From contig NW_020844463.1 of the NCBI RefSeq assembly GCF_003704095.1, positions 310,001-374,000 on the forward strand: DNA of 64,000 bases, read 5' to 3'. Source of the stretch: Pocillopora damicornis (taxonomy: Eukaryota). Made by a program: the position numbers. Each line of letters begins with the position of its first letter. Position 1 is the first letter of the stretch. This document shows, piece after piece, positions 44,201 to 47,200 of the stretch.

Positions 44201-47200
44201 TTGACTCTTCATCTACGTTGTAAGTATGAGTGGAAGCAAAAATGGGAAAACACAGGCAGCACACATAGAGGATTAGGGCACGAAAATGAGGTAATTAGTT
44301 CGGAAAGTAAATTTGCTTTACCACTTTGTAAACAGCAACAAGCATCTGTTACAGGATCGGAATTGGTGAACACCTGCCGTTTTTGCATAAAATTAAAGAA
44401 ATCTTTGTGAAAAGCAAGAATGCAAAATTGGTCGTGCTGGTTATTCGATGGTTTTCATTTAAATGTGTGTTCCGTTAGTATTTATAAATAAAACACAATG
44501 AACATAATGCCCTGTGTAAATAGTAACTTGTGAATGATTCTGTAGAGAGACATTCTGATTATTTACTAGCAGTAAAGTTGCAATTTCTGCAAGTCCAAGT
44601 TAGCGTGATGAGTTTTTTTGTGGTTAATTTGAAATTATTCCTATGCCATTGTGTTTACTCGAAGACATTCAAATGGAAGTGATGGCCATAAGACTTTTTC
44701 TGAAGCTCGTTCAAAATAATCTAATAATTTTTGAAGATAAAGCAATTTTTAGTCGAGTGTCAAAAATATCTCGGGGTTGCAAAAGTTTTGACGTGGTTAA
44801 AAGCTCGCATAAATTTTTTCGAAAAACATTCACGATCTCGAAGGAATTTTCTTTTAATTTTACCTTCGATAACTCTGACCACATTTGTTGCCTGAAAAGT
44901 CGATCCAAAGAGTCCTAGCTGTCGTCCAAAACATTGAATTTATTTTGAAGCAGCTGTGAATTTCTTGTCTTCGTTTATTTAGAGTTACAGAAACGTGTCA
45001 AGTATGTCACGTGACCCTTACAGTACATTATAGCTCAGATGAGCTACAGTTGTTGGTTTATATCGTAAAATAGGTTTTGGCTAGTCATCATGAGACAAAC
45101 GATTCCATTTCTCTTTCAAAAGTAGTTGGTTTCTTTATAAAATCTTTTTTTTTTCATAACTGTTGCCTTCTCCACTGGACCTCTGTATTCTGATTGAATT
45201 ATGACGACAATTTATTCTGTATGAATGAAAATACACTGATCGCCTCTTTCCCTTACTTCCGATAATTTTCCCTCGACTCTCTTTGAATCAAACTCCCGAT
45301 CAAGTCTTTATTATATCAGGACCTAATAGGAGGTACAAAAGCCGTCGTGTATCTTTCTCCCGTGTGAAGTCTGGAGCGAGCCTCGACATCATACACGCGT
45401 GCGATTAAAAAGCCTCATTGTCATGCCAGAGATGGCCGCTGCGTGAAGGGAACGTTCTGAGTACTTGCGACAAACTTCTACGAGCAGAATGCCGGCGATC
45501 GGTGTTATTTACCCTCCGCCGGAGGTGAGAAGTATCTTTCCTTATGTATGCAACGTTTTTGTGGTCATACAATAAGGCGTTGTCTACATCGTATTTCACT
45601 CATAAGACATCACGTTTTAGGAACACTATTTGTCTCGTTGCTTTTATTTTGACTTTGCTTCGTTTACCTGGGAAATATCAAAGTAAATGAAAGTTACGTT
45701 ACTTTCGAAAAGTCCTGTTATGATCGTGTAAATGCTACTTAAGTGAATTAACTTCCCCCGAACGAAGCGAAGCTCTTTCATAACTAGTCTGTTATAGGGG
45801 TATTTTATTCATAGTAGATAAATCATATACATGTAAACCTTAACTTGATGCTCAGATATTGTTGACAAGACTGCGAGCTTTGTTGCTAGAAACGGTGAGT
45901 AGCAATTCATAGTATGTCAATAGATCGACATTAGACGTAAGAATTTAAATTACTGTAATTGCATGTTTAGATCATACACGTCTGAATGATTGTAAAGATG
46001 CTGTGAATACGAGTGAGGTCTTGGTTGACACGCTAGTATTTGATTAGATGACCATAAATTATTTTCATAGGTGCAAGTTCGGGAAAAAAAAATTACCTTA
46101 ATAAAGAAACTTTTGATTTAGTGTCATGAGACCAAGGAAATCTCACTGGCCAGTAAGGAGAGAATCTCAAGGAGCCAATGAGAACTCAAATGAAAAACCC
46201 ATATTCTGCACTGCTTTAAGAAAATGTGGTGATCAGGTGGCATTCAGCTTTAGGTTTGGATTGTTTCAGTGGGAAGGGTGGTGTAAGTTTATGTGAACAG
46301 TTAAAGAACAAAGAAAAAAACTTTGCAATTCCAGATTACTTTTAACACTCAATGGGATTTTGCTCTAAAAACACAACAGCAGTTGCCTCAGTGTATAATG
46401 GAAATGCATCCCAAGAAACTGATATTTTAGCATATAGCACTGTCTGTTCAGTGACAGTGTTCAAGTAAAAGCATGATTATAAAATACAACTGGTAACCTA
46501 GATGTACATGCTCACTGGGGATTGTAGACAGTAGAATTATTCAGTGAGTAGACAAAAATCTCTTTGTCATTGGTCATCTATGCATCAGTCCTGTGATAAA
46601 TCATAGATAAGAAGCAATCAAAATCAATGCATCCTTCTGCTTATTACAGCTGTGTATATGTTTAGTTAAATTTTTATGTGCTGAGTTTTTTGTTTTTAGA
46701 AAGAGAGAACATCCCCCTGTTACTTTTCACTGTTCTTAAGTCACTTCATTTGTGATTACACTGCTTTGAGAAAAGGGAATTGTGTGAGTAGTTTTTGAAT
46801 CTGCTAGATTGTCATTGTTATTTGTTTGTTGCAGGACCGGAATTTGAATCACGAATCAGACAGAATGAAATAAACAATCCTAAATTTAATTTCCTGAATC
46901 CTGGAGATCCCTACCACGCGTACTTCCAACAAAAAGTTACAGAGATTAAAGAGCAGGATGACAAAGGTGAGTAAAAAGTAACATGATACAGATCAACTTG
47001 AATAATTTGAAAAGAAAAAGAGAATCACAAGAATCACCAGTATGTGATAAGTGATTTATGGACTTATCTTTGGTAGAGGGTTTGGACAGTGCTGTAAAGA
47101 GAGCTGTAGCTTTCCACTCAGGTCTGATGAGGGTTTGAATTTTGGACTCAAAGGGTCTCAAAGTGACTAAGTGTCTTTGTTGCCAAGGGTTTTTTTGTTT

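What the first reader, a model, noticed from the sequence alone, without database searches (positions are those of the whole stretch)
45521..45894. A major-spliceosome subunit gated by a minor (U12) intron, with an overlapping frameshifting U2 donor
Seen: the first coding intron of SF3A1 has U12 hallmarks (GTATCTTT donor, ACCTTAAC branch 11 nt from the 3' end, no pyrimidine tract). Seven nt upstream, the exon itself contains a good U2-type donor, GAG|GTGAGA (45525). Using it, joined either to exon 2 or directly to exon 3, shifts the frame to a TAA at 46871-46873, a predicted NMD target. Established: SF3a is a U2 snRNP complex and is not part of the U11/U12 snRNP. Inference: U11 versus U1 competition at overlapping sites could make U2 snRNP supply depend on minor-spliceosome activity, a cross-regulatory switch. 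The GTGAGA may also be a by-product of Glu-Val-Arg codons.
Basis: partly seen in the sequence, partly recalled or inferred. Interest (0 to 1): 0.7.

Follow-up and report, generated by a model that had tools for sequence, protein, structure and literature searches.

The report
Minor-type first intron in coral SF3A1
The first intron of a coral gene for a core part of the main splicing machine carries the marks of the rare second machine, an arrangement already known in the fruit fly, and the nearby rival splice signal is real but not shown to be used.

Summary
The window is coral DNA (Pocillopora, closest to P. damicornis). It carries an 18-exon SF3A1 gene on the + strand (45489-57741).

- **Intron 1 (45532-45855, phase 1)** begins GTATCTTT and has ACCTTAAC 11 nt before the CAG. 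It is the only one of the 17 introns with a U12-like donor and branch site. It meets a published donor rule. I take it as a U12-type GT-AG intron.
- **The upstream donor** GAG|GTGAGA lies 7 nt before it. It is the best of 91 exonic GT sites in the gene and the best of the 48 possible encodings of Glu-Val-Arg. That encoding is still expected 5% of the time by codon usage alone.
- **Prior knowledge:** the idea is not new. Drosophila Sf3a1 (CG16941) has a known U12-type first intron, lost in vertebrates. Its retention lowers Sf3a1 mRNA and protein. Competing U2 and U12 donors are a known class.
- **Not tested:** use of the upstream donor, its conservation, and whether the coral and fly introns share a position.

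Verdict: a new member of a known kind, of moderate interest.

The parts
45489..57741 (+). SF3A1 (splicing factor 3A subunit 1) coding region: 18 coding exons, 17 introns, 2193 coding nt including the stop
   Evidence: Pfam Surp x3 and PRP21_like_P x3 on single open frames. Exon 52658-52966 is 100% identical to NCBI Pocillopora SF3A1-like proteins. Exon borders were mapped against P0003 and P0001 and the exon lengths summed. The N run at 51034-51133 lies in intron 9 and was left as it is.
45489..45531 (+). Exon 1, coding part (14 codons plus 1 nt, ends in phase 1)
   Evidence: An in-frame TGA lies upstream at 45444-45446 (read).
45522..45530 (+). In-exon U2-type donor GAG|GTGAGA (cut between 45524 and 45525), formed by the Glu-Val-Arg codons
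   Evidence: It scores 11.41 bits with the gene's own 16-donor matrix and is top of 91 exonic GT sites; true donors score 1.24-11.66 bits leave-one-out. It is the top of 48 synonymous encodings, expected frequency 5.1%.
45532..45855 (+). Intron 1, 324 nt, phase 1: U12-type (minor) GT-AG intron
   Evidence: It matches the U12 donor consensus at 7 of 8 positions and the branch consensus at 7 of 8, 12 nt from the 3' end. The other 16 introns match at 2-5 of 8 and have at least 2 branch mismatches. As a U2 donor it scores -0.13 bits.
45532..45540 (+). U12-type 5' splice site GTATCTTTC
   Evidence: It meets the rule RTATCCTT with one C at +5/+6 changed to T (PMC2846911). The same start occurs in an intron that intronIC lists as U12-type (PMC7367187).
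45837..45844 (+). U12-type branch site ACCTTAAC
   Evidence: It is the only CCTTAAC-N5-12-YAG match in the window on either strand.
45573..45575 (+). In-frame TAA reached if intron 1 is retained (28 codons after the ATG)
45856..45894 (+). Exon 2, 39 nt (start of the first Surp module)
45895..46834 (+). Intron 2, U2-type (GTGAGT ... TTGCAG), the strongest U2 acceptor in the region
   Evidence: 15.64 bits; this site is part of the training set
46835..46966 (+). Exon 3, 132 nt, the rest of the first Surp module
   Evidence: Pfam Surp E = 2e-16 on open frame 46792-46971; borders
46871..46873 (+). TAA reached in the shifted frame when the 45525 donor is used, 93 nt before the end of exon 3 and with 15 exon junctions downstream
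   Evidence: junction count from the exon map

Best explanation
Intron 1 of the coral SF3A1 gene is a U12-type (minor-class) GT-AG intron.

- **How it is removed.** The U11/U12 machinery most likely removes it. It is most likely the coral counterpart of the U12-type first intron known in Drosophila Sf3a1, that is, an old animal intron that vertebrates lost.
- **What follows.** Full-length SF3A1 mRNA can only be made when the minor spliceosome works. If the intron stays in, translation stops at TAA 45573-45575 after 28 codons. The supply of a U2-snRNP-specific protein therefore depends on minor splicing, as shown in the fly.
- **The upstream donor.** GAG|GTGAGA, 7 nt upstream, is a latent U2-type donor. 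It exists because the invariant Glu-Val-Arg must be written GAR-GTN-(AGR/CGN). If it is used at all, it is most likely used when U11 fails to occupy its site. It would join to the intron-1 or the exon-3 acceptor and give a frameshifted transcript with TAA at 46871-46873, a predicted target of nonsense-mediated decay.

Shown: the sequence features, the frames and the gene identity. Inferred: the splicing machinery used, orthology with the fly intron, dependence of output on minor splicing, and the cryptic rather than regulatory status of the upstream donor.
For: - **Gene identity and exon borders:**
- **U12 features:** intron 1 is the only one of 17 introns with 7 of 8 donor and 7 of 8 branch-site matches, the branch site 12 nt from the 3' end. 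It also has the lowest (tied) pyrimidine content.
- **Weak as a U2 donor:** -0.13 bits, against 1.24-11.66 bits for the 16 true U2 donors.
- **Published criteria:** it meets the donor rule in PMC2846911. The same donor start is listed as U12-type by intronIC.
- **Corals have minor introns:** Acropora has a minor-intron density above most vertebrates.
[quoted passage not shown] It is retained in minor-splicing mutants, with lower spliced mRNA and lower Sf3a1 protein. Its spliced product rises with the U12 level.
- **SF3a is absent from the minor spliceosome**.
- **Stops:** retention stop; frameshift stop.
- **By-product reading of the donor:** Glu-Val-Arg is present in all 32 SF3A1 proteins that matched the motif search, of 43 examined. 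The actual encoding is expected at 5.1%, and a donor of 8 bits or more at 26%, from the gene's own codon usage.
- **Cryptic U2 sites near U12 introns are common** when minor splicing is impaired (review PMC8329584).
Against: - No intronIC or matrix score for U12 class could be computed. No such matrices were on hand.
- The donor has T rather than C at +6, and the branch motif has A rather than T at its first position.
- With the gene's own U2 acceptor matrix the 3' end scores 5.39 bits, mid-range, so U2 use of this acceptor is not excluded.
- That the fly and coral introns share a position was not tested.
- Against 'mere by-product': the upstream donor is the single best of 48 synonymous encodings and the best of 91 exonic GT sites in the gene. 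It scores above 15 of the 16 true donors. That is unusual for an exon, where strong decoys are normally avoided. Both matrices rest on only 16 sites.
- No expression data of any kind were seen.
Confidence: 0.65

Rival explanations
1. The U2-type donor at 45525 and the U12-type donor at 45532 are an evolved pair. U1 and U11 compete for neighbouring sites. The share of productive (U12) against frameshifted, decay-bound (U2) transcripts sets SF3A1 output according to minor-spliceosome activity.
For: - The two donors are 7 nt apart.
- The U2 donor is top of 91 exonic GT sites and top of 48 synonymous encodings.
- Both U2 outcomes give the same early TAA.
- The intron-1 acceptor is usable on paper by the major pathway, at 5.39 bits and rank 5 of 88 AG sites.
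- Precedents are reviewed in PMC8329584: competing U12 and U2 donors with a shared 3' site in CENATAC, SRSF10 and NCBP2, and U11 acting as an antagonist of U1 at overlapping sites in a retroviral splicing silencer.
Against: - A 5.1% chance of this exact encoding, and 26% for any donor of 8 bits or more, is weak evidence for selection.
- The GT is forced by the invariant Glu-Val.
- No isoform evidence was found. The three NCBI protein models seen are the full-length form, one with an alternative first exon inside intron 3, and one starting in exon 9. None reflects the 45525 donor.
- In the passages I read of the fly study, sf3a1 showed retention, and cryptic splicing was named for another gene.
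- Conservation was not testable.
Confidence: 0.15
2. The purine-rich stretch GGAGGTGAGAAG (45521-45532) helps rather than competes. Either it is an exonic enhancer for the U12 donor next to it, or it brings U1 to the promoter-proximal exon of a gene whose first intron cannot recruit U1, without being used as a splice site.
For: - Eleven of these 12 bases are purines (read).
- The stretch has seven contiguous positions complementary to the recalled 5' end of U1, and a 6 of 9 consensus match.
- That purine-rich enhancers stimulate U12-type splicing, and that promoter-proximal U1 binding supports transcription, is recalled knowledge.
Against: There is no direct evidence. The same codon-usage argument applies. 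The predicted pairing of this stretch with the U12 donor is no better than 17 of 200 shuffles.
Confidence: 0.1
3. Intron 1 is an ordinary U2-type GT-AG intron with weak signals, and the U12-like motifs are coincidence.
For: - Each motif alone occurs at chance frequency in the window.
- Two other donor-plus-branch pairs turn up in the window with no coding flanks.
- The acceptor scores mid-range as a U2 site.
Against: - Both motifs sit exactly on protein-defined borders, at about 2e-7 per intron (my arithmetic).
- The donor scores -0.13 bits as a U2 site, below all 16 true donors.
- The same gene has a U12-type first intron in the fly.
Confidence: 0.04

Closest known systems
U12-type first intron of Drosophila Sf3a1 (CG16941)
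   Same: It is the same gene, also the first intron, and also of the G-start subtype. Its retention in minor-splicing mutants lowers spliced mRNA and Sf3a1 protein, so a major-spliceosome subunit depends on the minor spliceosome (PMC2831892 passages and Table 2; PMC12084885 passages; PMC6199344; PMC3851718).
   Different: The fly intron is GC-AG and the coral one GT-AG. Identity of position was not tested. No upstream U2 donor is described for the fly in the passages read.
[quoted passage not shown]
   Same: It has two donors of different class next to each other and one acceptor. One outcome carries a premature stop. The gene encodes a spliceosome protein (review PMC8329584, section 7 read in full).
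   Different: There both donors are reported as phylogenetically conserved and both isoforms are observed. There the U12 route is the non-productive one and the protein belongs to the minor spliceosome. Here use and conservation are unknown, and the U2 route is the non-productive one.
SRSF10 autoregulated minor intron (nested U2 and U12 introns)
   Same: It links the level of regulators of major splicing to minor-spliceosome activity through a choice between the two pathways (PMC7244321, abstract in the listing; review).
   Different: It has an AT-AC intron, a nested U2 intron with its own exon and poly(A) site, and an enhancer bound by the protein itself. None of these is seen here.
Cryptic U2-type splice sites activated near U12-type introns when minor splicing is impaired (for example the snRNP core gene SNRPE, written SNRNPE in the review)
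   Same: A latent U2 site close to a U12 intron, silent in normal conditions (review).
   Different: Those cases were seen in transcript data from patients or mutants. Here the site is only predicted.
U11 snRNP-binding splicing enhancer (USSE) of SNRNP48 and RNPC3
   Same: U12-type donor motifs are used for feedback on spliceosome genes (review passages). The window has a second exact GTATCTTTC 183 nt upstream.
   Different: A USSE is a close tandem of two U12 donor motifs in a non-coding region that activates an upstream U2 3' site. Here the copies are 183 nt apart, and the upstream one may not even be transcribed.

Membership tests
U12-type (minor-class) GT-AG intron | 5' splice site RTATCCTT, where one C at +5 or +6 may be T (rule stated in PMC2846911; consensus in PMC2831892) | tested here: met
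   GTATCTTT at 45532-45539, a 7 of 8 match with T at +6
U12-type (minor-class) GT-AG intron | Branch site close to TCCTTAAC, a short distance from the 3' splice site. The 10-15 nt range is recalled; 9-12 bp is given for Physarum. | tested here: met
   ACCTTAAC at 45837-45844, a 7 of 8 match, with the second A 12 nt from the intron end. No other intron of the gene has fewer than 2 mismatches.
U12-type (minor-class) GT-AG intron | No polypyrimidine tract | tested here: inconclusive
   The pyrimidine fraction is 0.55, lowest of 17 but tied with intron 7, and the longest pyrimidine run is 4. The U2 acceptor matrix gives 5.39 bits, mid-range.
U12-type (minor-class) GT-AG intron | Formal classifier score (intronIC or U12 matrices) | not tested
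   No U12 matrices or intronIC on the script machine
U12-type (minor-class) GT-AG intron | Removal depends on U11, U12, U4atac and U6atac, and the host has these components | not testable with these tools
   The only evidence is from the literature, for another coral genus (Acropora). Rfam found no snRNA gene in this window, which says nothing about the genome.
Orthologue of the Drosophila Sf3a1 U12 intron | Same position and phase in the protein alignment | not testable with these tools
There is no eukaryotic genome collection. A scan of the prokaryotic genome collection with a back-translated pattern found 0 loci.
Regulated U2/U12 donor competition (CENATAC type) | Two donors of different class next to each other, one outcome non-productive | tested here: met
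   Donors at 45525 and 45532; the frameshift stop is at 46871-46873
Regulated U2/U12 donor competition (CENATAC type) | Both donors used in vivo | not testable with these tools
   No transcript data. The protein models seen do not reflect the 45525 donor.
Regulated U2/U12 donor competition (CENATAC type) | Both donors conserved beyond what the protein requires | not testable with these tools
   Only a within-gene codon-usage estimate could be made: 5.1% for this encoding
SF3A1 / PRP21 family | Two Surp modules, a PRP21_like_P region and a C-terminal ubiquitin-like domain | tested here: met
   Surp and PRP21_like_P were found on single open frames. The ubiquitin domain is precomputed for P0003, and its last 57 residues match exons 17-18 exactly.
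USSE (U11 snRNP-binding splicing enhancer) | Close tandem of two U12 donor motifs in a non-coding region downstream of a U2 3' site | tested here: not met
   The two GTATCTTTC copies are 183 nt apart (45349 and 45532), and the second is the real donor

The most novel reading that the evidence does not exclude
In corals the Glu-Val-Arg codons of SF3A1 have been fixed in their most U1-like spelling. U1 and U11 then contest two donors 7 nt apart. U2 snRNP supply would be tuned to minor-spliceosome activity through a frameshifted, decay-bound isoform. This would be an ancient cross-talk between the two spliceosomes that vertebrates gave up when they lost the intron. A second exact U12 donor motif 183 nt upstream could be a further non-productive choice.
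Probability: 0.12. Interest if true: 0.6.

Novelty: new member of a known kind. Interest (0 to 1): 0.33.

Why it matters
If the coral intron is the counterpart of the fly one, the dependence of a U2-snRNP-specific protein on the minor spliceosome goes back at least to the common ancestor of cnidarians and bilaterians, and vertebrates lost it. That bears on why minor introns persist.

The adjacent strong U2 donor gives a concrete question that public coral RNA-seq and genome alignments can answer. As it stands, the finding adds a species to a known case and a hypothesis of a known type.

Tried and rejected
1. **Whole-window motif counts.** I tried these as proof of a U12 intron and rejected them. 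Both motifs occur at chance frequency. A relaxed pairing scan gave two other pairs, 15577 to 15047 on the - strand and 5186 to 5608 on the + strand. Their flanks are full of stops in all frames.
2. **Mutual pairing of the two donors in a small hairpin** (45522-45543, -7.1 kcal/mol). It is not better than 17 of 200 shuffles, so I dropped it as evidence.
3. **NCBI isoforms X2 and X3 as evidence for the alternative donor.** Rejected. X2 starts in an alternative first exon at 47678 inside intron 3, and X3 starts at a Met in exon 9.
4. **A frame-restoring U2 acceptor for the 45525 donor.** Reading the sequence, there is no AG at the positions that would restore the frame around 45855.
5. **Orthologous DNA.** One scan of the prokaryotic genome collection, looking for contaminating host contigs with a back-translated pattern, found nothing.
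6. **Repeat content of intron 1 and the 5' region.** None in the window.
7. **Rfam.** Nothing in or near the gene.
8. Supplements of PMC2831892 and cluster membership of P0003 were closed. I retried neither.
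Full report
**What the window is**

Exon 52658-52966, searched alone, is 100% identical to NCBI 'splicing factor 3A subunit 1-like' proteins of Pocillopora damicornis and P. verrucosa. Where the two species differ, the window agrees with P. damicornis. It is coral DNA. Nothing here was taken for human.

Pfam on single open frames gives three Surp pieces and three PRP21_like_P pieces on the + strand between 46.8 and 53.0 kb. 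Against the full-length P. verrucosa protein P0003 (727 aa) and the P. damicornis model P0001, I mapped 18 coding exons and 17 introns from 45489 to 57741. They add up to 2193 coding nt.

All searches with window-encoded protein used single exons or single open frames. The one exception is the pairwise check. There two neighbouring exon translations were compared in memory with the reference protein to fix borders. The four N runs, one of them in intron 9, were left untouched.

**Check of the observation**

- ATG at 45489.
- Exon 1 runs to 45531.
- Intron 1 is 45532-45855 (324 nt, phase 1). It begins GTATCTTT, has ACCTTAAC at 45837-45844, then 11 nt, and ends CAG.
- Exon 2 is 39 nt.
- Intron 2 begins GTGAGT.
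- Exon 3 starts at 46835.
- The N-terminus of P0003 matches exons 1-3 with no mismatch. The borders therefore do not rest on the motifs.
- The second donor, GAG|GTGAGA, has its GT at 45525, 7 nt upstream.
- In the shifted frame exon 2 is open and exon 3 reaches TAA at 46871-46873, with or without exon 2. That stop lies 93 nt before the end of exon 3, with 15 junctions downstream.
- If the intron is simply retained, the frame stops at TAA 45573-45575.

The two sites are neighbours (45522-45530 and 45532-45540) rather than overlapping.

**Is intron 1 U12-type?**

Within the gene it stands alone.

| Feature | Intron 1 | Other 16 introns |
|---|---|---|
| Match to U12 donor consensus | 7 of 8 | 2-5 of 8 |
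| Branch consensus | 1 mismatch, 12 nt from the 3' end | at least 2 mismatches |
| Pyrimidine fraction before the 3' site | 0.55 (tied with intron 7) | 0.55-0.80 |

- As a U2 donor it scores -0.13 bits with the gene's own matrix, below all 16 true donors at 1.24-11.66 bits.
- The T at +6 is allowed by a published rule: RTATCCTT with one C at +5 or +6 changed to T (PMC2846911, table note read).
- The same donor start appears in an intron that the intronIC paper lists as U12-type (PMC7367187, passage read).
- Phase 1 fits the bias of minor introns away from phase 0 (PMC10639083, passages).

Single motifs are not rare in the window. RTATCYTT has 22 matches against 12.66 expected. The branch-plus-YAG pattern has 1 against 1.41 expected. 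A relaxed scan also finds two other pairs whose flanks have no coding potential. The weight lies in both motifs falling on independently fixed borders, about 2e-7 per intron by my arithmetic.

Two cautions remain. The acceptor is mid-range as a U2 site, at 5.39 bits and rank 5 of 88 AG sites. No formal U12 classifier could be run.

**What is already known**

- Lin et al. 2010 (PMC2831892, passages and Table 2 read) list Drosophila CG16941 (SF3A1) with a U12-type intron. It is GC-AG and is intron 1 of 6.
- The fly intron is retained in Smn mutants (PMC3851718, passage).
- It is also retained in miso mutants, where spliced sf3a1 mRNA and Sf3a1 protein fall (PMC12084885, passages).
- Its spliced product follows the U12 level (PMC6199344, passages).
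- SF3a is missing from the minor spliceosome (PMC11874965, passages).
- Corals of the genus Acropora have many minor introns (PMC10639083).

The 'major subunit gated by a minor intron' is therefore an established fly case. Three searches found no paper on a cnidarian SF3A1 minor intron.

**The upstream U2 donor**

With a matrix built from the gene's 16 U2 donors it scores 11.41 bits. That is the best of 91 exonic GT sites and above 15 of the 16 true donors.

Glu-Val-Arg is present in all 32 SF3A1 proteins that matched the motif search, of 43 examined; the other 11 did not match it. A GT is therefore forced at this spot. Among the 48 synonymous spellings the actual one scores highest. By the gene's own codon usage it is expected 5.1% of the time, and a donor of 8 bits or more 26% of the time.

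This is suggestive, not proof. Both matrices rest on 16 sites.

- competing U12 and U2 donors with a shared acceptor (CENATAC);
- SRSF10, NCBP2 and prospero;
- U11 acting against U1 at overlapping sites in a retroviral splicing silencer;
- the common activation of cryptic U2 sites near U12 introns.

In the fly miso study, cryptic splicing was named for Tsp97E. For sf3a1 the passages I read report only retention.

**Most likely mechanism**

I take intron 1 as a U12-type intron, probably the counterpart of the fly one. It makes productive SF3A1 mRNA depend on minor splicing, mainly through retention and the early stop. The upstream donor is best read as a latent U2 site written by invariant codons. 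It would be used, if at all, when U11 is limiting, and would give a decay-bound frameshifted transcript.

The evolved-switch reading stays open at about 0.12-0.15. A helper role of the purine-rich stretch is at about 0.1, and a plain U2 intron at about 0.04.

**What stayed unchecked**

- Any transcript evidence.
- Orthologous DNA: no eukaryotic genome collection was available, and the scan of the prokaryotic collection found nothing.
- The fly intron's exact position.
- The snRNA complement of Pocillopora.
- Supplements and the cluster look-up.
- The metagenome and viral collections, which were closed.

**Verdict**

It is a new member of a known kind. Interest is about 0.33.

Noticed in passing
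window 45349-45357 (+): A second exact copy of the 9-mer GTATCTTTC lies 183 nt upstream of the intron-1 donor and 140 nt before the ATG. If it is transcribed, it is an alternative U12-type donor that would remove the start codon. It also sits about 35 nt after a TATA-like TTATTATAT and opens a pyrimidine run, so it may instead mark the transcription start.
   Followed up: partly
window 45423-45446 (+): A short upstream reading frame (ATG, 6 more codons, then TGA) ends 42 nt before the main ATG and is in the same frame (read).
   Followed up: no
window 45544-45589 (+): A stable predicted hairpin inside intron 1 starts 13 nt after the donor. It folds at -17.2 kcal/mol with z = -4.2, and 0 of 200 shuffles fold as well. 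No repeat copy occurs elsewhere in the window.
   Followed up: partly
window 47678-47755 (+) and exon 9 (50748-50838): NCBI P. damicornis isoform X2 starts in an alternative first exon inside intron 3 and lacks the first Surp module. Isoform X3 starts at a Met in exon 9 and lacks both Surp modules.
   Followed up: partly
proteins P0005, P0009, P0013: Several cnidarian SF3A1 gene models (Acropora digitifera, Actinostola, Paramuricea) lack the N-terminal Surp region or start with unrelated residues. One possible cause is that gene predictors miss the U12 intron and the 39-nt exon.
   Followed up: no
window 2944-3016 (+): A tRNA gene is the only Rfam match at gathering score in the window, at 41.9 bits. 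It lies among the exons of the minus-strand EGF/PAN/fibrinogen gene.
   Followed up: no
window 2-3680 (-): Exons of a gene with PAN, EGF (x2) and Fibrinogen_C domains. The Fibrinogen_C hit has E = 3e-49.
   Followed up: no
window 33262-36760 (+): A polycystin-like gene with PLAT, Polycystin_dom and PKD_channel domains, carried in unusually long open frames of 309 and 426 aa.
   Followed up: no
window 24970-26238 (-): A 423-aa open frame with no Pfam match.
   Followed up: no
window 15577-15047 (-) and 5186-5608 (+): Two further pairs of a U12-like donor and branch motif. Both flanks are full of stops in all frames, so I take them as chance.
   Followed up: yes
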